A stretch of 64,000 bases of DNA from a virus: positions 1-64,000 of the IMG/VR virus record IMGVR_UViG_3300017963_000254; one strand, written 5' to 3'. Each line of letters opens with the position of its first letter. Position 1 is the stretch's first letter. Shown piece by piece: positions 10,134-64,000 of the stretch. The notes beneath the pieces were generated by a model. The model saw only the letters and a list, made by a program, of their open reading frames with translations. It had not been told where the DNA came from and ran no database searches. The translations under genes and the position numbers were made by a program.

Positions 10134-10142
10134 GAGGAGCTG

Positions 10143-10391
10143 GTGAGTAACGAGAAAGTGTTCGCGAAGGTGATCGGCAGCCCCTATCCGACATCCGTTG
10201 GTTTCGTTGTCTCCTGCGCGCGCGGCGAAACAAGGGTCTACGTTGGTGAGGTGAGCATCGAGAGGGCCATGCCGACAACGCGGTTCGTGCTCCAGAAGAA
10301 GGATGCGCGCGTATTCACCAGAGAAGCGGCCGAGGCGCTGGGCGGCGTGCTCTTCCAGCGCGAGACCGAGATCGAGCCGGCTGATGCCTAA
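10143..10391 (+). CDS. Hypothetical protein
   Basis: AGGAGG SD; fills gap between genes. Confidence 0.6.
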   Translation: MSNEKVFAKVIGSPYPTSVGFVVSCARGETRVYVGEVSIERAMPTTRFVLQKKDARVFTREAAEALGGVLFQRETEIEPADA

Positions 10392-22374: not shown

Positions 22375-22681
22375 GGCAGGGGACAAGAGGACGCGGAACG
22401 TCACGCCGCTCCACTACAGGCTGGTGGCGGTCTCGCGGGATGAGTCCGGCGAGCCGACTCGCTTCGATGTGGTGCCGGCGCCGGACGGCGTGAAGGACCC
22501 GAAGCGCAGGGACCAGTACAAGCGCTCGGTGCGGGCCGTGCTCGAGGCGGCCGAGGACGCTGACGCGGTCCAAGCCTACAACGGCAAGCAGTTGACCGTG
22601 GTCGCCTTCCCCGATCCGTTCATGTTCAAGGCGGAGGTCAAGGAGGAGACGATCCGCACGGTCCACATCACCGAGAGCTAG
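22361..22681 (+). CDS. Hypothetical protein
   Basis: GGAGG SD; GC3 bias. Confidence 0.65.
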   Translation: MTMSEAGDKRTRNVTPLHYRLVAVSRDESGEPTRFDVVPAPDGVKDPKRRDQYKRSVRAVLEAAEDADAVQAYNGKQLTVVAFPDPFMFKAEVKEETIRTVHITES

Positions 22682-27720: not shown

Positions 27721-28385
27721 GCAACGGGACCGGCAACAACCCGAAGCGCTCTCTGGTGACACCGACGCAGGCGGCTGCGATCGGCCGGAACAAGCGTCGC
27801 TACCGGTCGCTGATCGATAAGAGGCGGCTCGCCGTATGGGAGGCTCGTCTCGCCGGCGTGCCGGTCTATCAGCTGGCCAAGGACCACGGCGTCTCCACGA
27901 AGACGATCGAGCGGGACATCAGGTGGTGGGAGGATCGGCTCGGCTACCGAGCTGACGAGCTGAAGGATCCGAAGAACGCCGCGATCGATGTCGGCATGAC
28001 GATGGCCAAGCTCCAGAAGGTGGCCGAGGATGCCTACGTCGAGTTCCTGGGGGCCGACAACGGTCACCTCAAGGCCAAGTTCCTGATGGTGATGAACAAC
28101 GCGCTCGTCAACAGGCACAAGATCGGCGCCGACGCCGGGTTCTTGCCGAAGGTCGGTCAGGACCACGAGTGGCGAGAAGAGGTCAAGGTCACCTTCACTC
28201 AGCGGTTCGGCAAGGAGTCCCCGCAGGCCGTGTTCGATGACGACAAGAGCCGGCGCCGTGTTCTCGAGGCGACCGAGGCGATTCTCAAGGAGAGCGCCAG
28301 GTCGGGTGTTCCAGTCAAGGCCCTTCTCGAGCAGGCGTCGGCCAAGCCGGTGGAAGGCCAAGTTGTCGACACTGACGATGTGTAA
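27717..28385 (+). CDS. Probable terminase small subunit (HTH)
   Basis: YQLAKDHGVSTKTIERDI; directly upstream of terminase large subunit. Confidence 0.55.
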   Translation: MSNGTGNNPKRSLVTPTQAAAIGRNKRRYRSLIDKRRLAVWEARLAGVPVYQLAKDHGVSTKTIERDIRWWEDRLGYRADELKDPKNAAIDVGMTMAKLQKVAEDAYVEFLGADNGHLKAKFLMVMNNALVNRHKIGADAGFLPKVGQDHEWREEVKVTFTQRFGKESPQAVFDDDKSRRRVLEATEAILKESARSGVPVKALLEQASAKPVEGQVVDTDDV

Positions 28386-29908
28386 TGATCAGCTACGAGC
28401 ACGGGCGTTGGCGGTCGGTTCGGACTAATACCGAGAAGCTGAACGCCGCGCTTGAAGCCGTGCGTCAGCTGACGGTCGATGAGAGGGCCGCGTTAGGGAT
28501 CGTCCTCGGCGAGTTCGAGGACACCGGCACCAGCCAGACAGCCGACGAAGCGGCCGAGTTCGAGTGGGAGGAGACGCCTCTCCCGATCGAGGAGTGGATC
28601 CTGTCTGAGTACCACGTCGGCGAGACCGGTAAGGATCTCTACCCGATCCTACGCAAGGACATCTGCGAGCTGTTCCACGCGGGCGCACTCAAGAAGGGTG
28701 GCTACGCGGAGGCCGTGCTCTGCTTGCACCCAGACACGCGGGTGCCTCTTCTCGATGGGACTGCTCCTACGATCGCCGAGCTGGCAGAGCGCTGGCAGCG
28801 TGACTCGGTGCCGTTCTGGGTCTACTCCTACGTCAACGGAGAGCTGGGGCGGGCGCAGGCGGTCCAGCCCCGGCAGACCGGCGTGGACGACTACTACCAG
28901 GTAACCCTGGACGACGGTTCGACGTTCATCGGGAACTCCAGACACCAGATGCTCCGGCGCACTGGCGAGAAGGTGATGATCCGGGACATGCGGCCCGGCG
29001 ATTCGCTGATGCCATTCGAGGTGAAGTTCTCATCGACGAGCGCCGGCGACGATTTGGACGGCTACGAGAAAACTCAGCTTCTGTCAGGAGAGTGGGCTTA
29101 CACGCACCGACTCGTTGCCAAGGCATTGTGCGAGCAGGAAAGCGAGCGGCACAGTGTCGTTCACCATGAGGATCTGGACAAGCGCAACAACACACCAGAG
29201 AACCTCACGTGGATGAAGTGGCTCGATCACTTCAGGTTGCACCACCAGGAGCGGCGAGTAGACATCACGATTGATGCGATTCGCGCTACTGGTGCCGCGA
29301 GTCTACAGGAGGCGGCGGAGGCGCTTGAGTGTAGTTACTCACGCATTCGTTACGTGCTCCAGAAGAACGGCTACACGCAGACCGAGTTCTTCGGCAACCG
29401 GCGCGGCAGACGGCGCGGTAAAGACGACCTGACGATGGCTGCCGTGCGATTGGTGATCGAGGGTGGGGCGAGGACAGCCCGCGAAGCGGCCAAGCATCTT
29501 GATCGGGACCGCTCGACGCTTCATCGGTTCCTGCGGGCACGCGGTACCACTTGGACGAAGCTGCTGCGCGGGCACGACAAGAAGCTCACGGTGGAGCGCG
29601 TGGTTGCTGCGATCCAGTCTGGTGCCGCCACTGTTACAGCGGCGGCGCACTCACTTGGTTGTTACAAGAGCACGATCTACAAGCTGCTCAACCGCGAGGG
29701 GCTTGAGTGGGCCGAACTAGGCGGAGTGGTCGGCAATCACTTCGTCGTGAGTGTCGAGAAGATAGGAAGAGGTCCGGTCTACTGCTTGTCTGTTCCCGGC
29801 GCGGGGAACTTCGCCATCAGCACTCAACACAGCGAGGAGGAAGAGGTCAGTCCCATCCATCGCTCTGGTGTTTTTTCGTCGAACACCGGAGCCATCGGAT
29901 GGGGCTGA
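28385..29908 (+). CDS. terL: Terminase large subunit, N-terminal part with intein; stops inside Walker A
   Basis: PIEEWI...LYP...EAVL|intein|TGAIGWG*. Confidence 0.8.
   Translation: MISYEHGRWRSVRTNTEKLNAALEAVRQLTVDERAALGIVLGEFEDTGTSQTADEAAEFEWEETPLPIEEWILSEYHVGETGKDLYPILRKDICELFHAGALKKGGYAEAVLCLHPDTRVPLLDGTAPTIAELAERWQRDSVPFWVYSYVNGELGRAQAVQPRQTGVDDYYQVTLDDGSTFIGNSRHQMLRRTGEKVMIRDMRPGDSLMPFEVKFSSTSAGDDLDGYEKTQLLSGEWAYTHRLVAKALCEQESERHSVVHHEDLDKRNNTPENLTWMKWLDHFRLHHQERRVDITIDAIRATGAASLQEAAEALECSYSRIRYVLQKNGYTQTEFFGNRRGRRRGKDDLTMAAVRLVIEGGARTAREAAKHLDRDRSTLHRFLRARGTTWTKLLRGHDKKLTVERVVAAIQSGAATVTAAAHSLGCYKSTIYKLLNREGLEWAELGGVVGNHFVVSVEKIGRGPVYCLSVPGAGNFAISTQHSEEEEVSPIHRSGVFSSNTGAIGWG
28721..29884 (+). 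mobile_element. Intein TerL (388 aa) with HNH endonuclease and three HTH-like repeats
   Basis: Starts CLHPDTRV; HRLVA...VVHHEDLDKRNNTPENL; ends VYCLSV...GVFSSN|T. Confidence 0.88.
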
Positions 29909-29921
29909 CCTCGAAATTCTC

Positions 29922-31592
29922 AAGGACTACTTCGCCACCTTCGCGACGATGCGTGTGCTCTACGAGCTGCTCTGTCTGAAGAACCCTCAGCACACGTTAG
30001 GGCTGGGCGCCGGCGAGCCCATTCACGTCGTCCCCATCTCTCGCACGGTCGCTCAGGCGAAGCGCGTCGTCTTCGGCGGCCTCTGCAAGAAGCTCAACCT
30101 CGCCGACTGGTTCCGTGGCAAGTTCGTCGAGACGATGGAGGAGGTCCGCTTCAAGGAGAAGGGCGTCTACATCGTCGGCGGCGCGTCACAGGATGCAAGC
30201 GCACTCGGGTTGAACGTAATTTGTGCATTGGTTGATGAATCGAATTTCATGGGAGAAGGCAAAGTCGCTACAGGAAGCGCCAGCGGTGAGGCGTATGATA
30301 AAGCAACAATGATCTACAACGCGCTCGCCCGGCGCGTGAAATCGCGCTACGAGCGACACGGAGTCTCCGGCCTGGTGTTCCTCATCTCGTCGAAGCGCTC
30401 GACGGAGGACTTCACCGAGCGCCATCTGAAGCAGGCGATGAAGGACGACGACCCGACCGTCTTCGCCCGCGACTATGCGACATGGCACGTGCACCCCGAG
30501 CCGTTCGCGGACCAGAAGTGGCACAAGGTGATGGTGTCTCCGAAGAGCGGCAAGAGCAGGCTGCTCGAGGATGGCGAGGAAGTCGAGGAAGACGAGAACA
30601 CGATCGTCTTCGAGTATCCCGATGACTATCACGAGGAGTTCATCAACGACACGGACGGCGCGGTCCGCGACTTCGGTGGCATCGCGACCGACTTCGCCGG
30701 CAAGCTGTGGATCACCAGGCGGCAGGCGATCGACGAGATGTTCGATCACGCCAGGCCGCAGTGGTTCGGTACCTCCGAGTGGAGGACCGACAGGATGCTG
30801 CGGTTCAACTGGAAGATGTGCATGGGGGAGAACGTCGACAAGGAGCCGGTGCCGGCCTGTTGTCCTGGCTCGGTCCGCCACGTCCACATCGATCTCTCCA
30901 CGAGCCAGTGCGCGACCGGGTTCTGCATGGGGCATGTGGCCGGCTCGGTTCCGGTGACCCGGCGCGACCCGGAGACGGGCGAGCAGCGCCGCGAGGATGC
31001 GGTGGTGGTCCACATCGACTGCATCCTGCGGATCGTGGCGCCAGACGGCGGCGATGTCGATCACGGCGAGGTGCGCAGCCTGGTCTACAAGCTGATGAAG
31101 GGCGGGGTCCCGATCCGGTCGGTCTCGATGGACCAGTACCTCGCCCCGTCCAACCTCCAGATGTTCAAACGCAAGGGGTTGCGCACCGAGGAGATCGGTG
31201 AGCGGCGCTTCAAGCTCAAGCCCTACATCGCGACCCGGCAGGCGCTCTACGAGGGCCGGGTGGTGGCTCCGGTCTCCGAGAACCTGGCGTCCGAGCTGAA
31301 GGTGCTCGAGCTGCACCCGTCCGGCAAGAAGGTCATCGTCCCCGCGAAGCAGTCGAAGGATCTGGCGGACGCGCTGTGCGGCGTGGTCTACTACATCTCG
31401 GAGCACATGAGGGCCGGCGTCGTCCTCGCGCCGACTCTGGGAACGTCCGGGAGCGCACGGCCGGTCGGTCCTCAATGGAGTTCCGGCGGCCATGTCGACT
31501 GGGGCGACGATGACGATTACGGTTACGATCCTCCGCTCACGTCCGATGGCTCTGGTGATGGGGGGTTCTCGTCGTGGATCATCCTCGGCTGA
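29922..31592 (+). CDS. terL: Terminase large subunit, C-terminal part (ATPase plus RNase H-like nuclease), +1 frame
   Basis: KDYFA completes Walker A; Walker B ICALVDE; FLISS; HIDLS, SMDQY, SKDLADAL. Confidence 0.85.
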   Translation, partial: KDYFATFATMRVLYELLCLKNPQHTLGLGAGEPIHVVPISRTVAQAKRVVFGGLCKKLNLADWFRGKFVETMEEVRFKEKGVYIVGGASQDASALGLNVICALVDESNFMGEGKVATGSASGEAYDKATMIYNALARRVKSRYERHGVSGLVFLISSKRSTEDFTERHLKQAMKDDDPTVFARDYATWHVHPEPFADQKWHKVMVSPKSGKSRLLEDGEEVEEDENTIVFEYPDDYHEEFINDTDGAVRDFGGIATDFAGKLWITRRQAIDEMFDHARPQWFGTSEWRTDRMLRFNWKMCMGENVDKEPVPACCPGSVRHVHIDLSTSQCATGFCMGHVAGSVPVTRRDPETGEQRREDAVVVHIDCILRIVAPDGGDVDHGEVRSLVYKLMKGGVPIRSVSMDQYLAPSNLQMFKRKGLRTEEIGERRFKLKPYIATRQALYEGRVVAPVSENLASELKVLELHPSGKKVIVPAKQSKDLADALCGVVYYISEHMRAGVVLAPTLGTSGSARPVGPQWSSGGHVDWGDDDDYGYDPPLTSDGSGDGGFSSWIILG

Positions 31593-40202: not shown

Positions 40203-40562
40203 GTGTCGAAGACCGTCAAGATCCAAGCTCAGTTCCAGGTGATCGACGCTGACGGTACGCAGGCCATCAACCGGGTCACCAGGGATGAGGTCAGCATCGA
40301 GGAGGGCACCGGCGTCTTCCCTGAGAAGATCGCGCCCTCGACGGTCGATCATCCGGTCCAGTTCTCCGGCGTCACCAACGGCAAGCGCGTCTTCCTGCGC
40401 TCGAACCAGGAGGTCACGCTCAAGATCAACAACATCGGGGACATCGGCTTCCCGTTTGGCCCCGGAGATGGCTACCTCACCAGCTACACCGGAATCACCG
40501 CGCTCTACGTCACTACCGGCGGGAGCGAGACCGAGTTCGAGGCCGTGGTCACCGGAGATTGA
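40203..40562 (+). CDS. Small beta-rich protein, possibly structural
   Basis: GGAGG SD; Thr/Val/Gly-rich. Confidence 0.6.
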   Translation: MSKTVKIQAQFQVIDADGTQAINRVTRDEVSIEEGTGVFPEKIAPSTVDHPVQFSGVTNGKRVFLRSNQEVTLKINNIGDIGFPFGPGDGYLTSYTGITALYVTTGGSETEFEAVVTGD

Positions 40563-40577
40563 GCGAGGAGATAGGGC

Positions 40578-40955
40578 ATGGCTCACCAGCACCACTTCCA
40601 CGTCAAGACCGACGACTGGCCGGTGGTCTCGAACACCGATCAGCTGATGATCGTGCACCGCAATCAGCTCGCGATCAACGCGGTGCTCTACATCGGCGCG
40701 CACAAGGAGTCCGTGGTGGAGATCCGGTCGGCGACCGATCGGGAGACCGTCGAGACGGCCACCATCCCAGCCACAGGCGGGTCGGCGCTGACCATCCCCG
40801 CCGGCGGTATGGTCAAGTTCGACCTTCCCGGAGGTGGCACCACGCCACTCGACCTGGTCACGAAGCTCTCGCTTCTCAGGGGGAGCGTCTTCGTGCACAT
40901 CTCGTCGTCGGGCGAGTTCGACACGCATCTCAAGCAGGTGGACACAGGCATCTAG
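40578..40955 (+). CDS. Small beta-rich protein, possibly structural
   Basis: GAGGAG SD; GC3 bias. Confidence 0.6.
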   Translation: MAHQHHFHVKTDDWPVVSNTDQLMIVHRNQLAINAVLYIGAHKESVVEIRSATDRETVETATIPATGGSALTIPAGGMVKFDLPGGGTTPLDLVTKLSLLRGSVFVHISSSGEFDTHLKQVDTGI

Positions 40956-40989
40956 TCACTAGGGCCTCCCATTCACGATGGAGGAAGCA

Positions 40990-41277
40990 ATGAGCACGTT
41001 CGACAAGCTGGCCGGCATCGATGAGGGCGTGACCCTCACGCGTCGTCCGCTCAAGACCCTCGACGAGGCGGGCGGCGGCAAGAAGGTCACGACGGCAGCG
41101 ACGACCGACTACGGCCCCACGCCGCCGAACACCAAGCTCGGTACGCCGAACAGTGCGTTCCGGCCGATGCCGAGTTCCCAGATCGGCGGAGCGCCGCCGT
41201 TCCCCGTCAAGCGGCGTCAGGTCCGTACCGGGAAGGTGGCGTCGCCGCGCCAGCCGATTCCCGTGCGGAAGGAGTAG
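40990..41277 (+). CDS. Small basic putative internal head protein
   Basis: GGAGG SD; GIDEG, RRPLKTLDEA. Confidence 0.6.
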   Translation: MSTFDKLAGIDEGVTLTRRPLKTLDEAGGGKKVTTAATTDYGPTPPNTKLGTPNSAFRPMPSSQIGGAPPFPVKRRQVRTGKVASPRQPIPVRKE

Positions 41278-41313
41278 CGCAACTCCTCCCAACCGCGTCT
41301 GGAGGTCGCGCTA

Positions 41314-41655
41314 GTGGGCTATCTGTCTGACAACCTGGCTCCGGGGAAGTCCGTCGCGGACTGCCCGGAGCTTTACCCGTATGCGATGGTCGTCGAGTAC
41401 TCGCGCAACGACCCGTTCTTCGCACCCGGGCCGGTTGACCAGATCGCGTTAGCCATCCGCGAAGCGCTTCCCGATGTCGAGGTCTGGCAGCGTTCGATCG
41501 TCCGCCCCGACGAGAACCGCGTGAAGTTCCGGTTCCGTTCCGAGGGCGAACGCACTCAGGGCAGCGACGCTCTCACCTCCGTCGATCCGTCGATCTCGAT
41601 CCGCCGGATCGTCTTCCTGAACCCGCCCGATCGAGCGAGACGAGGAATCCCATGA
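41314..41655 (+). CDS. Hypothetical protein
   Basis: GGAGG SD. Confidence 0.6.
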   Translation: MGYLSDNLAPGKSVADCPELYPYAMVVEYSRNDPFFAPGPVDQIALAIREALPDVEVWQRSIVRPDENRVKFRFRSEGERTQGSDALTSVDPSISIRRIVFLNPPDRARRGIP

Positions 41656-43850
41656 GCGAGCCGTCCAAGACCACGCTCCCGCCGCAGATGCTCAAGAACG
41701 CGAAGAAGTGGGCGAAGATCAGCGGGAAGACGCTGTACGTTTACTGGAGCCCGGCGATGGGCCGGCCGATGTTCGCCGAGGGTCCGCCCAGCGATCCCAA
41801 GCGGTTCAAGGTGCTGGCGATCGTCTCCCCGGACGGCAGCGTCAAGAAGATGCACGGCAAGAAGGCGACGGCCGTCGCCGAGGCGCAGGACCCGTTCGAT
41901 GTCATGGTGGACCTGTCGCGCGGCGCGTTCGCCGGCTACCAGGGGCCGTTAGCCGAGGCCAAGGCGCCTCCGAAGCCGGTCGGCAAGGCGCAGATCGCGC
42001 TGATGACCTACCTCAAGAAGTCGCACACGGCCGGCGGTCCGATGTTCCCCAAGAACGAGCTGACGGATGTGGTGCGCCACCCGATGTTCCGGGCGATGCA
42101 CTTCGGCAAAGTGAGCAAGGCGGCTTCGGTCCTGGCCAAGAAGGGTCTGGTCAAGTTCGACGGTCTGAAGATCTCGCTCGTGGAGGGCTCGACGAAGCAC
42201 GGCCAGTCGATGTCGTCCGGGTTCTCCCGAGACGCCAAGCTGATGGCGCCCGGCACCCGCGAGCTGGTGCTCAAGAGCCGCATGACCGAGATCGAGGCGT
42301 TCGCCGAGGATCGCGGCTACGACCCTGCGATGGTGTTCGCCGTCGCCGAGGTCTCCATGCGGATGGGCCGAGTCCCCGACCTCCGGCAGTACGGCTTCGC
42401 CGGTGAGGATGCGAAGGCCGTCCGCCACTTCGTCGCCGGCGACATCCTCAACATCGCGGTCGAGGACGTGCAGCATCTCCGACGAGCGCCCGGCTGTTCC
42501 TACGGGTCAGCTGGCGCGCTGCCGGTTGATCTCGAGGAGGACCAGCTGGAGGAGGGCCGCCAGGATCGGCAGCTCGGGCTCCACACGAACAGCGATGGCT
42601 CGGGGTTCACTGCCCTGACCCACTCGGCCAGCAAGACGTTCAAGAGCCGGGGCGGCGCGGTCCGCTGGCTCAAGAAGCGCGGCTACGACGAGAAGGGCGG
42701 CCGGATCAAGCAGGAGGACGAGGACTGGTCCGAGGCCGAGGCCCTCTGCGAGGCGACCGCTCTGCGAGCGCCCGGCGCCGCTCATGTGCTGGCCAACTCG
42801 CTCTCCGGTGATCTGGACGAGGACCGGGTTCACCGGAACGCGGCCGGCCCGGCGATGACCGAGACCGCCTACAACATCCTCGCGACGCCGGCCGCCGCGC
42901 CGACCGGCAGCGACGTGGACAAGATGGCGAAGGAGATCGAGAAGGCCCTCGCGCCTCTCTACAAGGGTCGCTACCTCTCGGTCAAGGCGCAGGACGTGTT
43001 CGGCCAGGCGAAGTCGGTCCACATCCGCGCCGGCAACATCACCCCCGCGATGATCAAGCACAACGTGGCGTGGCACAACGACCCCTACAAGTTCCAGGCG
43101 ATCGTGGGCGGATTCCTGAAGGACGGCTCGGCCGGCCCGAAGATCAACGTCGAGCAGATCGCCGGCCACTACAACAAGAAGAGGATGCGCAAGAAGACCA
43201 TCAAGCCCGGCAAGGAGTCCTTGATGGTCCAGCACATCAAGAAGTACGTGACCGGGCTGATGAAGGACGCTCCCGCGCCTCGCGCCGAAGACGTGGGGGC
43301 GCTCGACGAGGCCAAGGTCAAGCCGAAGATCCGGCGCGAGAAGATGCTTGGGCACCAGCTCTGGGTCGTTTCTCTGTCAGGAAAGGACATCGGTTCGATC
43401 AGCAAGCCTGGGCGCGACACCAAGGCGTCGAAGTCGGCGTGGGCGGCCTACGTGGGCATCGGCAGCAAAGCGCGCCACGTCGGCAACTACTGGGACAAGA
43501 AGAAGGCGGCCAACGAGGTTGTCAAGGCGGCGGCCGTGGCCGAAGACGTGGAAGCGCTGGCCGAGGAGGGTCTCTCCGAGGTCTCCCCGCCCGGCTGGTC
43601 CGGCTCCGTCAGGGCGATGAAGGGCGAGCCGGCGGAGAAGCTCAAGAAGTACGCCGACGAGCCCAAGAGCGACGACGAGAAGAGCATCGACAACCCGTGG
43701 GCGCTCGCCTGGTACATGCACAAGAAGGGCGCGAAGCCCCACTACAAGCCCGAGAAGGGCAAGCCGAAGTACACGCCGCCGAAGAAGAAGAAGGAGGAGG
43801 ACGCCGATCTCAGATCGGCCGTCGCCGCCTTCCGCGCGATGGAGGACTAA
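41652..43850 (+). CDS. Modular putative head polyprotein
   Basis: Basic modules separated by acidic linkers with LAEA, LVEG, LEEG, LCEA, LDED, LDEA, LSEV. Confidence 0.65.
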   Translation: MSEPSKTTLPPQMLKNAKKWAKISGKTLYVYWSPAMGRPMFAEGPPSDPKRFKVLAIVSPDGSVKKMHGKKATAVAEAQDPFDVMVDLSRGAFAGYQGPLAEAKAPPKPVGKAQIALMTYLKKSHTAGGPMFPKNELTDVVRHPMFRAMHFGKVSKAASVLAKKGLVKFDGLKISLVEGSTKHGQSMSSGFSRDAKLMAPGTRELVLKSRMTEIEAFAEDRGYDPAMVFAVAEVSMRMGRVPDLRQYGFAGEDAKAVRHFVAGDILNIAVEDVQHLRRAPGCSYGSAGALPVDLEEDQLEEGRQDRQLGLHTNSDGSGFTALTHSASKTFKSRGGAVRWLKKRGYDEKGGRIKQEDEDWSEAEALCEATALRAPGAAHVLANSLSGDLDEDRVHRNAAGPAMTETAYNILATPAAAPTGSDVDKMAKEIEKALAPLYKGRYLSVKAQDVFGQAKSVHIRAGNITPAMIKHNVAWHNDPYKFQAIVGGFLKDGSAGPKINVEQIAGHYNKKRMRKKTIKPGKESLMVQHIKKYVTGLMKDAPAPRAEDVGALDEAKVKPKIRREKMLGHQLWVVSLSGKDIGSISKPGRDTKASKSAWAAYVGIGSKARHVGNYWDKKKAANEVVKAAAVAEDVEALAEEGLSEVSPPGWSGSVRAMKGEPAEKLKKYADEPKSDDEKSIDNPWALAWYMHKKGAKPHYKPEKGKPKYTPPKKKKEEDADLRSAVAAFRAMED

Positions 43851-43851
43851 C

Positions 43852-45339
43852 GTGACAACGCATCAGGAAGAAGGAGCGGGCGCTGTGGGCAAGATGGAAG
43901 AGGCCACGATGGGCGGCGCCGGCATGGGCGCCCACATGCAGCTCGGCTCGGCGTTCATGCGGCGTCCATCCTCGATGATCCCCTACAACCAGTGGGCGGA
44001 GACCGACGACGATGACCTGTCGGCCGTCGCGTCCGGCCCGGCCATCTCCGCGTTCCAGCCGTTCAGCGTGCGCGACATGCTGCGGCTCGACGACGTCGAG
44101 CAGGACGGCGAGCCGATCGATGAGGCCGCCGATCCCGAGAAGATCTGGGCCAAGGTGCAGGAGCTTCGCAAGAAGTACCCCACCAAGACCCTCGTCGCCT
44201 TGCAGAAGATGGCCGAGCGAGCGCTGCGCCACGAGGGCGTCGAGGGTGCCTCGTCGCTGCGGGAGGGCAAGACGCGCGCGCAGCGGAAGAAGGAGAACAA
44301 GGCCCGCTTCGCCAAGATGTCGCCGGAGCAGAAGGCGGCCACGAAGGGCGACGAGCCGTTCCACCCCGAGGCCGGGAAGAGCGAGGACGAGGATCTCGAC
44401 GAGTCGCGCGACTCCTACGGGCAGGCCCCGTCCCTCGGCGAGATCTTCACCGCCAAGAACGCTGCGAGAGCAGGCGACTTCCTCGCCAAGTGGATGAAGA
44501 AGCCCAAGCCCAAGACGAAGGGCAAGAAGCAGGAGGACGAGGAGCTGGTCGAGGCGTTCGACGCGACCAAGTTCGCGAAGGGCCTGGCGATGCACATGAT
44601 GTCCGGCTCGATGAAGGGGAAGCTCCCCTCGAGCAAGGTCATCTGGCTCAGCTCGGTCGCCGCCGCGTTCGTGAAGAAGAACGAGGCGAAGATCCGCAAG
44701 CAGCTCGAGACCGGGTCGCTGGACCCCAAGGCGTTCATGGCGTCGTTCAAGAAGTACGCCGAGAACGCGGCCAAGAAGTCCGAGGAGGCGCCTGTCAGCG
44801 CTGACGTCACTGGCGCCTCTGCGCTGCGAGAGGGCAGCAAGTGGCAAGGCGCGATGTCGGCGCACGAGAAGCGCGTTTCGGCGAAGACCAGCACGATGTC
44901 TGACATCAAGGCCGTCAAGAAAGGCGCGCCGAAGTCGGCAGCCGACCTCAAGCATTACGCAGAGTCGGTCTGCGCTACGGTCCTGCGAGAGGCGCGGCCG
45001 AACCCCAAGACGCATCCGAAGATGAAGGCGCACGTCAACAGCCCCAAGTTCCGGGCGCACATCGGTGACCCGAAGGACCAGGAGAAGCCCTACCACAAGG
45101 GCAAGGGCATCCAGTCCGATGAGGCGCCCGTCGGTGCCGGCGTGCTTCGCGAGGGCGGGAAGGAGAAGTGGATCGCCGGTGCGATCAAGCGGCCCGGTGC
45201 GCTCAAGGCGAAGATCGAGAAGCGCACCAAGAAGGGCACGATCCCGGCAGCTGAGCTGGCGAAGGCCGCGAAGAAGCCGGGGCTCACTGGGCAGCAGGCC
45301 CGGCTGGCGAAGACGCTCAGGAAGATCGGCAAGAAGTGA
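43852..45339 (+). CDS. Modular putative head polyprotein
   Basis: IDEA, LREG x3, LDES, LVEA, LREA between Lys-rich peptides. Confidence 0.65.
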   Translation: MTTHQEEGAGAVGKMEEATMGGAGMGAHMQLGSAFMRRPSSMIPYNQWAETDDDDLSAVASGPAISAFQPFSVRDMLRLDDVEQDGEPIDEAADPEKIWAKVQELRKKYPTKTLVALQKMAERALRHEGVEGASSLREGKTRAQRKKENKARFAKMSPEQKAATKGDEPFHPEAGKSEDEDLDESRDSYGQAPSLGEIFTAKNAARAGDFLAKWMKKPKPKTKGKKQEDEELVEAFDATKFAKGLAMHMMSGSMKGKLPSSKVIWLSSVAAAFVKKNEAKIRKQLETGSLDPKAFMASFKKYAENAAKKSEEAPVSADVTGASALREGSKWQGAMSAHEKRVSAKTSTMSDIKAVKKGAPKSAADLKHYAESVCATVLREARPNPKTHPKMKAHVNSPKFRAHIGDPKDQEKPYHKGKGIQSDEAPVGAGVLREGGKEKWIAGAIKRPGALKAKIEKRTKKGTIPAAELAKAAKKPGLTGQQARLAKTLRKIGKK

Positions 45340-45608
45340 GCCTGACCGACTCCATCCGCCGGTTCCGATCGATCGACGAGGCGACTACCTCGGCGATGCT
45401 CGGTTCACGTACGACCGGCGGTCTCCCGTTCTACGGTCGGCGCGGGCTGGCCACGATCGAGCGGGAGCGCAAGGAGCGGATGAAGCGCCGCAGGAAGTGC
45501 AAGGGCTACGACCCCAAGTGTCGCGACAAGGAGTGGGAGGTACCGGCCCCGGTCGGCGGCGTTGCGCTTCTCCGCCGCAGTCCCATCACGAGTCTATCGC
45601 CAAGTTGA
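45336..45608 (+). CDS. Small basic putative internal head protein
   Basis: MSLTDSIRRFRSIDEA; GTGA overlap. Confidence 0.6.
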   Translation: MSLTDSIRRFRSIDEATTSAMLGSRTTGGLPFYGRRGLATIERERKERMKRRRKCKGYDPKCRDKEWEVPAPVGGVALLRRSPITSLSPS

Positions 45609-45655
45609 TCGACCCCCCAGCTGTGAGCGGGTAAGATGTTGAGCCGAGGCCACCT

Positions 45656-47578
45656 ATGAGCGATTCGATCGACAAGCTGCTGCACCTGGCGATGGCAGGT
45701 CCGTTTGCCGACTTCGCGTTACCCGAGGAAGCGGCCGAAGCGGATCAGCTGGACGAAGCGCTTGACCCGTTCCAGCGCATGACCGTGGACGACATGATCC
45801 GGGCCTGGATCAAGAAGCACGGGAAGACCGGCCTCGACAGGCTCATCAAGACGATCAAGAAGAAGGTCCGGGGCATCGAGAGCGCCAGCATCAACAAGCG
45901 GCTCGCGATCGTCGGCGGCATCTCCGAGGGCGACGACCTCGACATGCTCTCGCCCGAGGAGAGGATGCTCCTGGGCCTCGAGCGCGGCTCGAGTTCCGGC
46001 CCGTGGTTCGGTGACGACATGCCGGCCGGTCCCCGGCCGCTGATGGAGGGGGACACCTCGGGCTACTTCCCCCAGCCGATGACGCTGGACGAGCACCGCT
46101 CGGACGCTCTGCCGCTCGTCGAGGAGGTGCTCGACTGCGCCGAGCCGACCGTGTCGTTCTCGGCCGGCCCGTGCTTGGACGAGACCTACACGCCGGAGCA
46201 GATGAAGCGCTACAAGCGCGGCGGCGGCAAGCCTGGCAGTGTCGGCGACTGGCTCTACCACTTCGACGAGATGGACATCCGGCCGCAGTGGGTGAAGAGG
46301 GCCAGGTCGATGATGGGGGCCGAGGAGTTCGACTCGTCCTGCGTCAAGGCGCTCGCGCGCAAGGACCAGAAGCAGGTCGTCGAGTTCCTGGAGGGGAACA
46401 AGAAGGCCGAGGCGATGGCCAAGGTCTTGAACTACGCGTCGGGCGCGAAGACCGAGGAGCTGATCCACGAGGAGCGCTCTTTCAAGCGCGGCGATGTGGT
46501 CAAGTTCAAGGGCAAGCGCGAGCGGCGGCGCTACGTGATCACGTTCGTCGACCAGTTCGGTATGCACAACATGGTCGCGCTGTCCGGCAGCGAGCGCGGG
46601 TCGGCGCCGTCCGGGCACAAGACGAGCGAGCTGGAGCTGGACAAGGACCAGTCGATCGTGTTCTCCGGGAAGAAGGCCAAGCAGCTGTTCCGCCGCTATG
46701 ACCAGTACCAGGGTGCCCACTGGGGCGGCAAGATCAACAAGCCGCACAAGGTCTCCGAGGACGAGGCGCTGTCCGAGATGGAGGCCGGCGACATCGACGG
46801 CCAGATGAAGATCATCCGCGCGAAGGTCATCAAGGGCGCGAAGCCCACTCGCGCCCGCCGGCTCGCCGGCTGCCTGCGCGCACTGCGCACGGGCGGGATC
46901 ACCGTCTCCGGCCAGTCCCAGACCAACCTGAACCCGGTGCCCAAGGCCGAGAGGAACAAGGAAGACCAGCCGAAGGACGACACGCCCGGCGAGGTGGACG
47001 AGGACACCGGCCCGCCGGACCAAGTGAACACGGAGGATGTCATGAACCTGAGTGATGCGATCCGGCGCTTCCGGGGCGAGGACGAAGAGCCCGCTCCGAG
47101 GCCCGCAAGGAAGCCCCAGACGGAGTCCCATGGCGCGCGGCCGGCTTACGGCGAGTCGTTCGACGACCTGCGCGACAAGGGAATGGCGCTCGATGACTTC
47201 GGCTCGTTCGACGACGACGGTGACGTCGAGTTCGCCGAGGCGATGCTGAACAACGACCCGACCCTGACCGGGATGGACCGCCGGCTGGCCCAGCTGGAGG
47301 CCAACATCCCCGTGAAGGGCGGCAAGTCCAAGAGCAAGTTCCGCCAGCCCTACAAGGGTCCGGGCAAGGGCGTGTACGGTCCGGTTTCGACCCCGGCCGA
47401 TCCCGAGGCGAAGGCGGCTGCCACGCGCAGCACCGCCGGCGTGAAGGGTCCGGGCTACACCCCGGACGGTCGTGAGGAGGTCGATGTTCGGACCGAGCAG
47501 CGTGAGCCTGCTACAGCCCACGAGCTGGATCTCTTCGCCGAAGGCATGGAGTACCCGACCGACCTGATCGGCCGCTAG
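45656..47578 (+). CDS. Modular putative head polyprotein
   Basis: LDEA, ISEG, LMEG, LDET, LSEM; KOW/SH3-like module FKRGDVVKFK; possible internal start ATG47042. Confidence 0.65.
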   Translation: MSDSIDKLLHLAMAGPFADFALPEEAAEADQLDEALDPFQRMTVDDMIRAWIKKHGKTGLDRLIKTIKKKVRGIESASINKRLAIVGGISEGDDLDMLSPEERMLLGLERGSSSGPWFGDDMPAGPRPLMEGDTSGYFPQPMTLDEHRSDALPLVEEVLDCAEPTVSFSAGPCLDETYTPEQMKRYKRGGGKPGSVGDWLYHFDEMDIRPQWVKRARSMMGAEEFDSSCVKALARKDQKQVVEFLEGNKKAEAMAKVLNYASGAKTEELIHEERSFKRGDVVKFKGKRERRRYVITFVDQFGMHNMVALSGSERGSAPSGHKTSELELDKDQSIVFSGKKAKQLFRRYDQYQGAHWGGKINKPHKVSEDEALSEMEAGDIDGQMKIIRAKVIKGAKPTRARRLAGCLRALRTGGITVSGQSQTNLNPVPKAERNKEDQPKDDTPGEVDEDTGPPDQVNTEDVMNLSDAIRRFRGEDEEPAPRPARKPQTESHGARPAYGESFDDLRDKGMALDDFGSFDDDGDVEFAEAMLNNDPTLTGMDRRLAQLEANIPVKGGKSKSKFRQPYKGPGKGVYGPVSTPADPEAKAAATRSTAGVKGPGYTPDGREEVDVRTEQREPATAHELDLFAEGMEYPTDLIGR

Positions 47579-47594
47579 CTCCGGGGAGGTCACC

Positions 47595-48104
47595 GTGGGC
47601 CTGAAGGACGTGGCCGAGGATCTCGCCGGCTTCCTCGCGGAGGCTGCCCCCGACCCCGAGCAGGGGTCGGTTCCGCCTGTACTCACCGAGGAGCAGGTCG
47701 GCGAGGCCGCGACAGCTGTGCTGGACTACGTGCTCAGTCGGATGGAGAGCGACGACACCCCGGCAACGCTGGGCGAGGCTCTCATCATCGGCGCGCGCGC
47801 CGTCGGCGTGGATCTCGATCAGGATGACGACCGGATCGCGCAGGCGGCCGTCGCCCGGCTCGAGGACATCGCCCGCTCGGCTCGCGCGGCGCTCGAGGCG
47901 AACGAGGGGCCGATCGAGGAGGCGGCGGCCCCCGAGACCAGCGCGATCCTCGACCTCCTCCGCAAGAAGAAGGGGGCGAAGCTGCGTGAGATCGCCAAGG
48001 CGATCGGCAGCGATGTGAAGGCGGCGGCCAAGGCGCTCAAGAAGCTCCAGGCGCAGGGGCGGCTCAGCTACAACCTCAAGACCGGCTACTCGGTGGCGCA
48101 GTGA
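47595..48104 (+). CDS. Acidic N-terminal region plus C-terminal winged-HTH
   Basis: GGAGGT SD; PIEEA then ILDLLRKKKGAKLREIAKAIG...LKKLQAQGRL. Confidence 0.65.
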   Translation: MGLKDVAEDLAGFLAEAAPDPEQGSVPPVLTEEQVGEAATAVLDYVLSRMESDDTPATLGEALIIGARAVGVDLDQDDDRIAQAAVARLEDIARSARAALEANEGPIEEAAAPETSAILDLLRKKKGAKLREIAKAIGSDVKAAAKALKKLQAQGRLSYNLKTGYSVAQ

Positions 48105-48496
48105 GCCTCTACGACCGGGTTACCCTGGCCGAAGGCACGGCCGAGACGATCCTCAAGCAGCTCCGAAAGGCGCTTGGCTGGATCGACTACGGCGCGATGG
48201 GCATCAAGAACGTGTTCTCGTTCAAGGGTGACCAGAAGTTCCTGGGCGCCGAGGACACGACCGGACCGGGCGTCCAGTTCGACGTTCGCGGGCACTGGAA
48301 GGGCCGCGTCCTGATTCGGCTCGACCCGAGCGACACCTACACGATCATCTTCGGCCGCACGCGGCGGAAGAAGGACAAGAAGCTCGGCATCTTCACGCCC
48401 TACTGGCACGTGGACAAGAAGCTGAAAGGCGTCTACGTCTCCGAGCTGGGCAAGATCGTCAAGGACCACGTGCTAGGAACGGCGCTGAGGAAGTGA
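48101..48496 (+). CDS. Basic protein with MSLYDRVTLAE leader
   Basis: GTGA overlap; shared leader. Confidence 0.7.
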   Translation: MSLYDRVTLAEGTAETILKQLRKALGWIDYGAMGIKNVFSFKGDQKFLGAEDTTGPGVQFDVRGHWKGRVLIRLDPSDTYTIIFGRTRRKKDKKLGIFTPYWHVDKKLKGVYVSELGKIVKDHVLGTALRK

Positions 48497-49980
48497 GTCT
48501 CTACGATCGAGTTCTGGCGGAGAGAGCTGCGGCCACGAAGGCCGCCGGCTTCGCATCCTTGTCTGCCGATCAGCGCGGTGCCCTCGCCGATGCGTGGGAT
48601 CGCTGGCGCTCAAGACCGTCCTGGTCGAAGCGCGGACAGAACGCGTGGTACGACTGCCCGCGCGTGAAGGCCGCGCTAGGTCTGATGCCGGGCGACAAGG
48701 TGCCCGGCTTCATCAAGCGTCTCAAGCGGAAGGATCTGAAGGAGGCGAAGCGGGGAAGCGCTGCGGCGTCCAAGAAGCTCAGCGGGACGTGGGGCCATCC
48801 GCGCCGGCACGGCAAGAAGGCGGCCAGCAAGAAGCGCCGGCAACAGGGCAAGAGGCTGGACGAGGGCAAGGCCGCGTCCAGTTCCCAGATCTCCTACGCC
48901 CAGCACCTCGCCAAGCAGCAGAAGCTCAAGAGCCCAACCGCCGACGAGATCGCGGCGATGGACGACGTCGCCATCAGCAAGCTGATCGACGGCCTCAAGA
49001 AGAAGCGCGGCGAGCCGGTGTTCTACGGCAACGGCAAGTTCAAGGGCTGGGTCAAGAAGGGCGAGCTGTGGCCCAAGGGCAAGAAGGAGTCGCTCGACGA
49101 GGCCGCCTGGGGCATGTTCACCGGCGGGGCGGCACCGCTGGATGTTCCCTACCACGTGGGCGGAGACTGGAAGGAAGGCGCGGCGCAACTGCTCCGTCGA
49201 GAGATCGCGAAGCTCAAGGGGAAGGTCACGATGGAGCGAGCGCGGCTCGCTTTCCTCGCCGACGCGCTGGAGCGGGGCGACCTCAAGACAGCCAAACGCT
49301 TCTACAAGAAGCTGTCGAAGTCCGCGCGGAACCGATACGTCACGGTGGCGGCCCGCGAGAAACTGGCCGAGGGTGCCATCAAGAAGATCACCCTGGTTCA
49401 GCCGTCCGATGCTGAGGTCAAAGCGCTGAGGAAGGAGATCCTCAAGCTCGTCGACTCAGGGGTCAGCAAGAGCGGCGGTCCAGGCGGCAAGCCGGACAAG
49501 CCGTCGGTGCGAAACATCAAGCGTGGCAGCACAGCTCCGTCCATCGAGATCCGCCGCTACACGCCATTCACGCCCGAGGAGGGTGTGCGGATCGTCAAGC
49601 TGCTGATGTCGAAGGGCTACGTCGATGCGCTCGGAGCGGTTCCCTGGCCGGAGTTCCTGCGCAAACCGTTCCACCACCCGTCCATCATCGCCGGCAAGCC
49701 CGCGAGCAGCGTGTCCGAAGCTGTGGAGCGATTCCGCGAGCTACCCCTCACTGAGTACGGCGGCATCGGCGGCCGGATCGCCGGTGGTCGTCATCCCTAC
49801 CGGGTGCCTCCGTCGAACACGATCCCGCCGGCCAACGTGATCGTCAGCCCCAAGGACATGACGGCCGAGCTGATGGCGAAACGGCAGCGGGAGCTGGAGC
49901 AGCGAGCCGAAACGCGGGAGCGGATGCGCCAGCTGGCGATCGAGTGCGACCGCCGGCCGCTGAAGACCCTGAGATCATAG
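48493..49980 (+). CDS. Modular basic polyprotein with MSLYDRVLAE leader
   Basis: LKEA, LDEG, LDEA, LAEG, LTEY; ends RRPLKTLRS. Confidence 0.7.
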   Translation: MSLYDRVLAERAAATKAAGFASLSADQRGALADAWDRWRSRPSWSKRGQNAWYDCPRVKAALGLMPGDKVPGFIKRLKRKDLKEAKRGSAAASKKLSGTWGHPRRHGKKAASKKRRQQGKRLDEGKAASSSQISYAQHLAKQQKLKSPTADEIAAMDDVAISKLIDGLKKKRGEPVFYGNGKFKGWVKKGELWPKGKKESLDEAAWGMFTGGAAPLDVPYHVGGDWKEGAAQLLRREIAKLKGKVTMERARLAFLADALERGDLKTAKRFYKKLSKSARNRYVTVAAREKLAEGAIKKITLVQPSDAEVKALRKEILKLVDSGVSKSGGPGGKPDKPSVRNIKRGSTAPSIEIRRYTPFTPEEGVRIVKLLMSKGYVDALGAVPWPEFLRKPFHHPSIIAGKPASSVSEAVERFRELPLTEYGGIGGRIAGGRHPYRVPPSNTIPPANVIVSPKDMTAELMAKRQRELEQRAETRERMRQLAIECDRRPLKTLRS

Positions 49981-63404: not shown

Positions 63405-63533
63405 GTGAAGTTACCGAACTGGGTCCGTCGGCTCATCTGCCGATTCCTAGGCCACATCCCTCTCGTAGTGAGGGAGAGACCGGATAAGGTCGTAATGTGC
63501 AAGCGGTGCTGGACCAGGCTGGAGGGACGATGA
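63405..63533 (+). CDS. Small CxxxGH...CxxC protein (42 aa, DUF1660-like; absent from ORF track)
   Basis: MKLPNWVRRLICRFLGH...MCKRCW; TAGAAT upstream; ATGA overlap with next gene. Confidence 0.55.
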   Translation: MKLPNWVRRLICRFLGHIPLVVRERPDKVVMCKRCWTRLEGR

Positions 63534-63865
63534 GCCTATTCGACCGAGTCGTACTGGCCGAATCGACCTCCTCCGACGTATCGGAGATCGTTGAGCACCT
63601 CAAGGACGGCATCAAGCGCGGGAAGTTCTCCCCCGGCGTCAGCATCGACGAAGTATTCGCGACGCTTCCAGTGGAGATCACCATGCGCAGGTTCTCATCG
63701 TTGCTGCGTAAGCACGCCGACGAGATCGGGAAGCGGCTGGGAGTGAAGGGATTCGCTGTGGGCGGCGGCAAGTATGTTCACTCGACTAAGAAGGAGAATT
63801 GGGGGAACATGCCGCACAACAAGGCCGGCGGGTTGCGGGCAGGAACGCTGTGGTGGGCGCGATGA
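63530..63865 (+). CDS. Basic protein with MSLFDRVVLAE leader
   Basis: GGAGG SD; shared leader. Confidence 0.7.
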   Translation: MSLFDRVVLAESTSSDVSEIVEHLKDGIKRGKFSPGVSIDEVFATLPVEITMRRFSSLLRKHADEIGKRLGVKGFAVGGGKYVHSTKKENWGNMPHNKAGGLRAGTLWWAR

Positions 63866-64000
63866 GCCTGCTCGATCGAGTCGTAGGCGAAGCGATCGGC
63901 GCGGCCGGCTCGTGGGACCAGACCAACCCGGTCGGCGTCTCCAAGCAATCGCGCAAGGTGGTCGGGAACTTCCCGCTGCCGCTCCGGCGCAGGCGCGAGA
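63862..64000 (+). CDS. Partial CDS with MSLLDRVVGEA leader
   Basis: ATGA overlap; runs off the window end. Confidence 0.6.
   Translation, partial: MSLLDRVVGEAIGAAGSWDQTNPVGVSKQSRKVVGNFPLPLRRRRE

What the first reader, a model, noticed from the sequence alone, without database searches (positions are those of the whole stretch)
40990..49980. Array of putative virion polyproteins: basic mini-modules joined by (L/I)-x-E protease linkers
Seen: over 9 kb, ORFs alternate Lys/Arg-rich modules of about 20-130 aa with short acidic linkers ending L/I-x-E followed mostly by A/G/S/D (LAEA, LVEG, LEEG, LDEA x4, LREG x3, LDES, LVEA, LREA, IDEA x2, IEEA, LKEA, LDEG, LAEG x2). Linkers repeat internally (EAPVSADVTGASALREG, EAPVGAGVLREG). 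Modules include wHTH-like and KOW-like domains. Known: T4 prohead protease gp21 cleaves after Glu in (L/I)-x-E. Inference: a cassette system in which many small cargo proteins are strung together, packaged, and released by the maturation protease for DNA condensation or injection, i.e. polyprotein processing in a phage.
Basis: partly seen in the sequence, partly recalled or inferred. Interest (0 to 1): 0.84.

Follow-up and report, generated by a model that had tools for sequence, protein, structure and literature searches.

The report
Protease-jointed capsid cargo polyproteins
An uncultured giant phage with a T4-type head strings about 30 small, mostly basic protein modules into a few genes, joined at the cutting motif of a T4-type head protease; they are probably loaded into the capsid and cut apart there, though no cut has been measured.

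Summary
In the nine + strand genes at 40978-49980, [LI]-x-E-[AGS] occurs 27 times against 6 expected (z=9). The contig's other genes show 41 against 35. Changed P1 residue, reversed order and shifted spacing show no excess. The five most enriched genes of the 74.5 kb contig all lie here.

The sites are a peptide signal: 26 different 12-mers encode 27 sites. They fall in low-confidence linkers between confidently folded modules. In a 275 kb complete relative, 16 of 19 alignable sites keep the motif while P2 drifts.

Modules come and go at the sites, recur in other orders in metagenomic homologues that are also enriched (114 against 38.5), and occur as stand-alone small genes. Unrelated proteins share an MSL[YFL][DE]RV..xE leader, and one gene was inserted at a duplicated leader.

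The relative encodes a gp20 portal, a gp21-type protease and a gp23 capsid protein.

Best reading (about 0.65): a plastic locus of T4-style internal head proteins built as polyproteins. Packaging, cleavage and injection are inferred. KOW-like modules were not confirmed. It is a new variant of a known kind. This scan has noted the same architecture in other genomes (49 notes in at least 46 genomes matched the look-up, 8 shown). I found no paper describing it.

The parts
40978..41277 (+). 99-aa protein. The leader MEEAMSTFDKLAGIDE|G is followed by GVTLTRRPLKTLDE|A and then a 69-aa very basic piece (pI 11.7).
   Evidence: The protein is 86% identical in the relative G001 and both sites are kept.
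41314..41655 (+). 113-aa protein with a single IRE|A site. Doubtful member of the system.
   Evidence: It is 94.7% conserved in G001.
41652..43850 (+). 732-aa polyprotein of about six modules. Cuts are predicted after E102, E178, E301, E367 and E553, plus LDE|D at 391 and L-S-E|V at 643.
   Evidence: In the AlphaFold2 model all five [AGS] sites lie in or at the edge of segments with pLDDT below 50, between folded modules. Homologues P0009-P0017 carry its modules in other combinations.
41958..42185 (+). wHTH-like module (residues 103-178 of the 732-aa protein), bounded by LAE|A and LVE|G. It is absent from the relative.
   Evidence: In G001 the flanks join as YQG-SLAE|G, so exactly one module plus one site is missing. 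Predicted topology is H-H-H-E-E. It recurs at other positions in P0010 and P0012.
42573..42683 (+). DUF1391 module (residues 308-344), a domain that elsewhere forms small stand-alone phage and prophage proteins.
   Evidence: Pfam PF07151, E=1.1e-11, 44.7 bits. PHROG 751. tblastn hit to Salicola phage CGphi29.
43852..45339 (+). 495-aa polyprotein. A 91-aa acidic, disordered N-terminal region is followed by seven small basic modules. Cuts are predicted after E91, E138, E184, E234, E327, E380 and E434.
   Evidence: It is the most motif-enriched gene of the contig (7 against 0.98). Six to seven of the seven sites lie in or at the edge of low-pLDDT linkers.
44785..44832 (+). Linker EAPVSADVTGASALRE|G.
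   Evidence: In the relative the same linker start is joined directly to the next LRE|A, and the module in between is deleted.
44833..44991 (+). 53-aa module (residues 328-380) present here and absent from the relative.
45121..45153 (+). Linker EAPVGAGVLRE|G. The relative lacks it, so the two flanking modules are fused there.
45154..45336 (+). C-terminal 61-aa module (pI 11.3). It is widespread as a stand-alone small (58-130 aa) protein, mostly viral.
   Evidence: A HMMER search of 1.84 billion representatives found 237 hits. Most match only residues about 435-495, in proteins of 58-130 aa. The nearest Atlas clusters are small Uroviricota proteins, which is a lead only.
45336..45608 (+). 90-aa protein. 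The leader MSLTDSIRRFRSIDE|A is followed by a 75-aa basic piece (pI 10.9).
45656..47578 (+). 640-aa acidic protein with three sites in its first 131 residues and a 509-aa remainder. This suggests a larger cargo or structural protein with a multi-cut propeptide, not a mini-module array.
   Evidence: The middle part is replaced by unrelated sequence in the relative.
47595..48104 (+). 169-aa protein. The leader MGLKDVAEDLAGFLAE|A and two acidic pieces are followed by IEE|A and a 60-aa basic wHTH module.
   Evidence: (HTH_24). All three sites are kept in the relative.
48101..48496 (+). 131-aa protein. The leader MSLYDRVTLAE|G is followed by a 120-aa basic piece. It is a strain-specific cassette.
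   Evidence: It has no homologue in the 275 kb relative. It lies between orthologous neighbours, with the 21-nt leader-coding sequence duplicated at both junctions. PHROG 9437.
48493..49980 (+). 495-aa polyprotein. The leader is MSLYDRVLAE|R. Cuts are predicted after E84, E124, E203 and E293, and all five pieces are basic. The C-terminus carries RRPLKTL.
   Evidence: Residues 294-418, which start exactly after LAE|G, are absent from the relative.
63530..63865 (+). Further gene with the same leader (MSLFDRVVLAE|S), outside the flagged stretch.
63862..64000 (+). Start of a further gene with the same leader (MSLLDRVVGE|A), 383 aa. It runs past the window's end, to 65013 of the contig.
   Evidence: The relative also has MSL[YF]ERV leaders at 79474, 108641 and 208921.

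Best explanation
This is a plastic locus of internal head (capsid cargo) proteins in an uncultured phage of about 275 kb whose head is built on the T4 plan.

Proposed mechanism:
1. The precursors are made as single-module proteins and as polyproteins of up to about eight small modules.
2. Short N-terminal leaders (MSLYDRV..LAE and looser variants), or longer acidic N-terminal regions, dock them to the scaffolding core of the prohead, as the T4 capsid-targeting sequence does.
3. The gp21-type serine protease then cuts after Glu in (L/I)-x-E followed by a small residue. This removes the leaders and separates the modules.
4. The resulting pieces of 4-20 kDa, mostly basic, stay with the DNA and probably enter the host with it. 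They would act as DNA-binding, host-takeover or anti-defence factors.

Because each module carries its own cut site, modules can be inserted, deleted, duplicated or swapped at the linkers or at the shared leader without disturbing the others.

Shown here: the motif, its specificity, its placement in linkers, its conservation, the modular exchange, the shared leaders, and the T4-type protease, portal and capsid genes in a close relative.

Inferred: packaging, cleavage, retention, injection and the function of the pieces.
For: Enrichment and specificity:
- [LI].E[AGS] occurs 27 times against 6 expected (z=9). Other genes of the contig show 41 against 35. All control motifs are flat.
- The five most enriched genes of the contig all lie in this stretch.
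- 26 different 12-mers encode the 27 sites, and no long DNA repeat lies at the linkers, so selection acts on the peptide.

Placement and conservation:
- Sites lie in or at the edge of pLDDT<50 linkers between confident modules: 5 of 5 in the 732-aa protein and 6-7 of 7 in the 495-aa protein.
- 16 of 19 alignable sites keep the motif in a relative that is 75% identical across these proteins. P1 Glu is kept in 18 of 19, and P2 changes most often.

Modular exchange:
- Indels between the two phages begin or end exactly at sites.
- Starts of homology blocks among 41 related polyproteins lie within 5 aa of a site in 18% of cases, against 7% by chance. The HSPs are not independent, so this is supportive only.
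- 37 metagenomic homologues of at least 250 aa are themselves enriched (114 against 38.5, z=13).
- Modules occur as stand-alone small genes.

Leaders:
- A shared leader sits on unrelated proteins.
- One cassette was inserted at a duplicated leader.

Head genes:
- The relative G001 encodes Portal_T4 (E=4.9e-51), Peptidase_S77 (37.1 bits against a cut-off of 27) and Gp23 (E=3.4e-54) side by side. Its capsid protein starts MFTARGMLAE|N, and an acidic scaffold-like protein carries nine [LI].E[AGSD] sites.
- Three of four other viral records that share one module also encode Peptidase_S77.
- T4 precedent: 10-residue capsid-targeting sequences, gp21 cutting after Glu, and diverse internal proteins that share only the targeting sequence (PMC9026906, PMC3012670, PMC5694885).
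Against: - No proteomic, N-terminal or expression data exist for this uncultured phage.
- The window's own 74.5 kb contig holds no protease gene. The protease is seen only in the relative, where it is interrupted by an intein.
- The 732-aa protein has no leader-type site near its N-terminus.
- The locus lies beside the terminase and nucleotide-metabolism genes, about 115 kb from the head module in the relative.
- The relative's capsid and portal proteins have no [LI].E[AGS] site. The capsid protein has only LAE|N and LNE|E, so the true specificity may be broader than the counted motif.
- There is no sequence homology to T4 IPI, IPII or IPIII.
- Enrichment in the relative's orthologues is weaker per gene.
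Confidence: 0.65

Rival explanations
1. The sites are genuine prohead-protease sites, but the proteins are core, scaffold or charge-neutralising filler rather than delivered effectors. The protease chops them so that the basic pieces condense the 275 kb genome inside the head, or are simply cleared. They would have no role in the host.
For: Most predicted pieces are small and strongly basic. Several are low-complexity and Lys-rich. T4 gp22, gp67 and gp68 are cut into short fragments (PMC5694885). No enzymatic domain was found in the mini-modules.
Against: Many modules are confidently folded distinct domains, including wHTH, DUF1391 and a 130-aa alpha/beta module. They turn over quickly between close relatives and occur as stand-alone genes in many phages. 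This is the pattern of conflict-driven accessory cargo, not of a conserved structural filler. Known scaffold proteins are acidic and coiled-coil, and the relative already has such a protein beside its protease.
Confidence: 0.18
2. The motif marks domain junctions but is not cut. The proteins would act intact as multi-domain DNA-binding or host-takeover proteins made in the cell, comparable to uncleaved polyvalent proteins. L-x-E-[AG] would be a conserved linker or helix-capping feature carried along when modules recombine.
For: No cleavage has been measured. The locus is not in the head-gene cluster. Some polyvalent proteins are transferred unprocessed (PMC5512222). One linker is simply absent in the relative, so two modules can stay fused.
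Against: The motif is also found 10-16 residues from the N-terminus of unrelated proteins, after a shared leader, where no domain junction exists. P3, P1 and P1' are held while P2 drifts, which matches the T4-type rule of cutting after Glu. Control motifs are not enriched, and other multi-domain genes of the same phage show no excess. The shared modules co-occur with Peptidase_S77 in other viral records.
Confidence: 0.13
3. The pattern is a chance or compositional artefact of Ala-, Glu-, Gly- and Leu-rich proteins in a 65% GC genome.
For: The proteins are rich in A, E, G and K.
Against: Composition-preserving shuffles give 6 sites against 27 observed. Same-genome controls and eleven control motifs are flat. 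Independent metagenomic homologues reproduce the excess with z=13.
Confidence: 0.01

Closest known systems
Phage T4 internal proteins IPI, IPII, IPIII and Alt: capsid-targeting sequence plus gp21 processing (PMC9026906, PMC3012670)
   Same: - A short N-terminal leader ends in (L/I)-x-E.
- The protease is of the gp21 type, in a T4-type head module.
- The mature proteins are small and basic.
- The cargo is highly diverse and shares only the leader.
- The locus is variable between relatives, with exchange at the leader.
   Different: - Here many cargo modules are chained in one polypeptide with an internal cut site at each joint. T4 internal proteins are single modules with one N-terminal cut; Alt also has a C-terminal cut.
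- There is no sequence homology to the T4 internal proteins.
- The leader sequence differs (MSLYDRV..LAE).
- The phage is only a remote relative: its capsid protein is 25-31% identical to those of any isolate.
Polyvalent proteins of phages and conjugative elements (Iyer, Burroughs, Anand, de Souza, Aravind 2017, PMC5512222)
   Same: Several unrelated small domains are fused in one protein, predicted to travel with the invading DNA. Domain shuffling is extensive. Release of the domains by proteolysis has been proposed.
   Different: Polyvalent proteins are defined around hub domains (zincin-like metallopeptidase, MuF, ParB, ART and others), and processing is proposed to come from an embedded peptidase. 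None of these domains was detected here. Here the proposed cutter is the separate prohead protease, acting on a defined tripeptide rule at every joint.
Inner-body and ejection proteins of phiKZ, 201phi2-1 and SPN3US, processed by the S80 prohead protease (PMC5694885, PMC7411985, PMC10052503)
   Same: A giant phage in which many head-internal proteins are cut after Glu at a three-residue motif, sometimes at several sites in one protein.
   Different: Their motif is (S/A/G)-x-E, which is not enriched here (9 against 15.2). Their extra sites lie mostly in propeptides that are discarded, not between retained modules. The protease family and capsid lineage also differ.
T4 core and scaffold proteins gp22, gp67 and gp68
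   Same: They are cut by gp21 at several (L/I)-x-E sites into short fragments.
   Different: They are acidic, conserved assembly proteins whose fragments mostly leave the head. The modules here are basic, folded, diverse and exchangeable.

Membership tests
T4-type internal head proteins (capsid-targeting sequence + gp21 processing) | N-terminal leader of about 10-20 residues ending in (L/I)-x-E | tested here: met
   Six of nine proteins have a site at residues 11-16 (34 in one). Several unrelated proteins share MSL[YFL][DE]RV.
T4-type internal head proteins (capsid-targeting sequence + gp21 processing) | The phage encodes a gp21-type (Peptidase_S77) prohead protease within a T4-type head module | tested here: inconclusive
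   The gene is absent from the window's own 74.5 kb fragment. It is present at 37.1 bits (cut-off 27), between Portal_T4 and Gp23, in the complete 275 kb relative, which is syntenic at about 80% nucleotide identity.
T4-type internal head proteins (capsid-targeting sequence + gp21 processing) | The mature products are small basic proteins | tested here: met
   Predicted pieces are mostly 40-200 aa with pI 9.4-12.
T4-type internal head proteins (capsid-targeting sequence + gp21 processing) | The protein is physically present in the head and cut at the site | not testable with these tools
   The phage is uncultured and no proteome exists.
T4-type internal head proteins (capsid-targeting sequence + gp21 processing) | Sequence homology to IPI, IPII, IPIII or Alt | tested here: not met
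   No Pfam or PHROG match to these families. T4 internal proteins are in any case unrelated to one another outside the leader.
Polyvalent proteins (Iyer et al. 2017) | Multiple (2-15) unrelated domains in one polypeptide of a phage or plasmid | tested here: met
   Six and eight modules in the two largest arrays, shuffled among homologues.
Polyvalent proteins (Iyer et al. 2017) | Presence of the characteristic hub or effector domains (zincin-like MPTase, MuF, ParB, ART, kinases and others) | tested here: not met
   Pfam and PHROG scans found only DUF1391 and wHTH.
phiKZ-type inner-body / ejection proteins | Cleavage motif (S/A/G)-x-E | tested here: not met
   [AGS].E[AGS] occurs 9 times against 15.2 expected.
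T4 scaffold / core proteins (gp22, gp67, gp68) | Acidic, conserved assembly proteins encoded in the head-gene cluster | tested here: not met
   The modules are basic and variable, and the locus is about 115 kb from the head cluster in the relative. A separate acidic candidate lies beside the protease.

The most novel reading that the evidence does not exclude
T4-type phages may have a general, so far undescribed way of building their injected arsenal. Tiny effector or DNA-binding modules would be strung as beads on polyproteins whose joints are prohead-protease sites. The same tripeptide rule would then serve two purposes. It releases the modules inside the capsid, and it provides the neutral joint at which cassettes are inserted, deleted, duplicated or split into separate genes. 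A single locus would yield about 30 different small proteins delivered with the DNA, and it would turn over between strains only about 80% identical at the DNA level.
Probability: 0.45. Interest if true: 0.75.

Novelty: new variant of a known kind. Interest (0 to 1): 0.6.

Why it matters
If the pieces are indeed packaged and injected, this locus shows how a large phage can carry dozens of first-strike proteins into the cell before any gene is expressed, and how it can exchange them quickly. That bears on the search for anti-defence proteins. It would extend polyprotein processing, a hallmark of RNA viruses, to the cargo of tailed DNA phages. It would also provide a natural rule set (leader plus L-x-E-small joints) for loading several foreign proteins into T4-type capsids. 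The (L/I)xE[AGS] density test used here picks out the candidate cargo genes from sequence alone: in this contig the five most enriched genes all lie in the locus.

Tried and rejected
- Nucleotide and protein searches of the isolate-phage collection with the locus and with two of its proteins found only a DUF1391 hit in Salicola phage CGphi29. There is no cultured relative to borrow proteomics from.
- Peptidase_S77 is not in the own contig.
- Foldseek of both AlphaFold2 models against the PDB gave nothing at E<=0.001, only weak wHTH-type rows. The Atlas look-ups gave only sub-threshold leads to small viral hypothetical proteins.
- DNA-repeat-mediated linkers were rejected: there are no long repeats, and 26 different 12-mers encode the 27 sites.
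- The T4 late-promoter sequence TATAAATA is absent from both genomes. I therefore could not assign the locus to a late class. A different upstream motif, GGGTAGAAC, is absent from both the array and the head module, which is only weak evidence of shared timing.
- The search for related loci with P0012 found nothing.
- My first statement that the 41314-41655 gene is missing from the relative was wrong. It came from my ORF picker, and tblastn finds the gene at 94.7% identity.
Full report
**Context.** The window is the first 64 kb of a 74.5 kb IMG/VR viral contig that CheckV rates 27% complete. GC content is 65%. It carries an intein-bearing family A DNA polymerase, a class II ribonucleotide reductase with inteins, a dNMP kinase and a terminase. 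Because of the GC content every stretch has long ORFs on both strands. Third-position GC (0.8-0.92) identifies the real genes, which in 40-50 kb all lie on the + strand.

**The observation.** The nine genes between 40978 and 49980 encode 2,964 residues. [LI]-x-E-[AGS] occurs 27 times, against 5.9-6.0 in shuffles that keep each protein's composition (z about 9). In the other 18,469 residues of the contig it occurs 41 times against 35.

- The excess is specific. Asp, Gln or Lys at P1, the reversed motif, spacing shifted by one, Ala/Gly/Ser at P3, and charged, hydrophobic or other residues at P1' all lie at expectation.
- Ranked by enrichment, the five top genes of the whole contig all lie in this stretch.
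- The sites are encoded by 26 different 12-mers, and there are no long DNA repeats at the linkers. The signal is therefore in the peptide.
- Cutting in silico after each Glu gives short acidic N-terminal leaders and about 30 pieces, most with pI 9.4-12.
- A wHTH module is supported at the end of the 47595 gene and by predicted topology in the 41652 gene. A KOW-like module is not supported.

**Sites lie in linkers.** AlphaFold2 models built on alignments of homologues show beads on a string. In the 495-aa protein, confident helical modules (pLDDT 85-97) alternate with segments below 50, and six to seven of the seven sites fall in or at the edge of those segments. In the 732-aa protein all five sites do.

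**Relatives.** A 275,101 bp IMG/VR genome with terminal repeats (G001) is syntenic with the contig at about 80% nucleotide identity.

- Of 19 sites in alignable context, 16 keep the motif. Glu is kept in 18, while P2 is the position that changes most (LVEG/LAEG, LKEA/LSES, LDEA/LGEA and others).
- The differences between the two phages are largely whole modules that begin or end at a site. The relative lacks a 76-aa wHTH-like module (residues 103-178 of the 732-aa protein), a 53-aa module (328-380 of the 495-aa protein) and about 125 aa following LAE|G in the last gene. The relative in turn has extra or duplicated modules.
- The 48101-48496 gene has no counterpart in the relative. It sits between orthologous neighbours, with the 21 nucleotides that encode the leader MSLYDRV present at both junctions.
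- Further homologues from metagenomes (437-1,225 aa) carry the same modules in other orders and combinations. They are themselves enriched for the motif (114 against 38.5, z=13). Their homology blocks tend to start just after a site: 18% lie within 5 aa, against 7% by chance. This measure is not independent across HSPs.
- Single modules occur as stand-alone small genes. The last 61 residues of the 495-aa protein match more than a hundred proteins of 58-130 aa. DUF1391 is a known small phage and prophage protein domain.

**Leaders.** Six of the nine proteins have a site 11-16 residues from the start (34 in one). MSL[YFL][DE]RV..xE heads unrelated proteins at 48101, 48493, 63530 and 63862 here, and at three places in the relative.

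**The protease.** The own fragment has no Peptidase_S77 match. The relative encodes, side by side:

- a T4-type portal (E=4.9e-51);
- an acidic scaffold-like protein with nine [LI].E[AGSD] sites;
- a 943-aa protein with the Peptidase_S77 domain (37.1 bits, cut-off 27), interrupted by a LAGLIDADG intein and extended by a coiled-coil tail;
- a gp23-type capsid protein (E=3.4e-54) that begins MFTARGMLAE|N.

Three of four other viral records that share one of the modules also encode Peptidase_S77. The capsid protein is only 25-31% identical to that of any isolate, so the lineage is a remote member of the T4-type head group.

**Interpretation.** In T4, internal proteins and Alt reach the prohead core through a leader of about 10 residues. 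gp21 cuts after Glu. The internal proteins are a diverse defence-related set that share only the leader (PMC9026906, PMC3012670, PMC5694885). The (L/I)-x-E form of the gp21 rule is textbook knowledge; PMC9026906 cites LIE-9 in gp21 itself.

Every computational feature here fits that system, with one extension: many modules are chained, with a site at each joint. I therefore read the locus as internal head cargo made as polyproteins. They would be loaded by leaders or acidic N-terminal regions, cut apart by the prohead protease, and probably delivered with the DNA.

Packaging, cutting, retention and injection are inferred, not shown. Points against:
- the protease is documented only in the relative;
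- the 732-aa protein lacks an N-terminal leader site;
- the locus is far from the head genes;
- the relative's capsid and portal lack [AGS] at P1', so the real specificity may be wider.

**Rivals.** The alternatives are structural filler rather than effectors (0.18), uncleaved multi-domain proteins whose junctions merely carry the motif (0.13), and chance (0.01). The last is refuted by the controls.

**Comparison and novelty.**
- The closest known system is the T4 capsid-targeting sequence with gp21-processed cargo.
- The closest published concept for chained cargo is the polyvalent proteins of Iyer et al. 2017 (PMC5512222). These are defined by other domains, and an embedded peptidase is proposed to process them.
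- phiKZ-type inner-body proteins use a different motif, which is not enriched here.

Full-text searches found no paper that describes prohead-protease-jointed cargo polyproteins. Within this scan, however, the same architecture has been noted before in other genomes: the look-up matched 49 notes in at least 46 genomes and showed 8, all T4-like phages. I did not test those notes. I class the finding as a new variant of a known kind.

Noticed in passing
window 41041, 49951 and 31595; G001 at 22501, 62788, 72153, 80548, 104725, 179839, 185194: The peptide RRPLKT(L) recurs in unrelated proteins. It often forms a site itself (RRPLKTLDE|A, RRPLKTLSE|I, and MNLRRRPLKTLAE|A at an N-terminus), and once it lies at a C-terminus (RRPLKTLRS*). 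It may be a second targeting or docking peptide.
   Followed up: partly
G001 191916-194747 (L010:6916-9747): The gp21-type prohead protease gene of the relative is interrupted by an intein with a LAGLIDADG homing endonuclease (about residues 80-425). It also carries a coiled-coil C-terminal extension of about 400 aa, as if protease and scaffold were fused.
   Followed up: partly
window 15150, 15822, 50002, 51018, 57651, 59643, 62189, 63374; about 40 places in G001: A conserved GGGTAGAAC(G) motif lies upstream of many genes, very often exactly 14 nt before the start codon. This suggests a phage-specific -10-like promoter that gives leaderless or nearly leaderless mRNAs. It is absent from the cargo array and from the head module.
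   Followed up: partly
window 40203-40562 and 40578-40955: Two adjacent small beta-rich proteins (119 and 125 aa) lie just upstream of the array. They have no family match and are 96% and 78% conserved in the relative.
   Followed up: no
window 43850-43852; homologues P0015 and P0016: The 732-aa and 495-aa genes abut in different frames here. In metagenomic homologues, modules of both proteins lie in one polypeptide, so gene fission and fusion occur within this family.
   Followed up: partly
window 28385-31592: The terminase large subunit is read as two ORFs, and the first carries an intein with HNH and HTH parts.
   Followed up: no
L026:5181-8405 and 9557-10951: A low-GC, complete 162 kb phage with Peptidase_S77 carries the SPPGF/NPYALAW module inside Lys-rich multi-module proteins. 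One of them starts with a cytidylyltransferase-like domain. The module family therefore spans very different T4-type phages.
   Followed up: no
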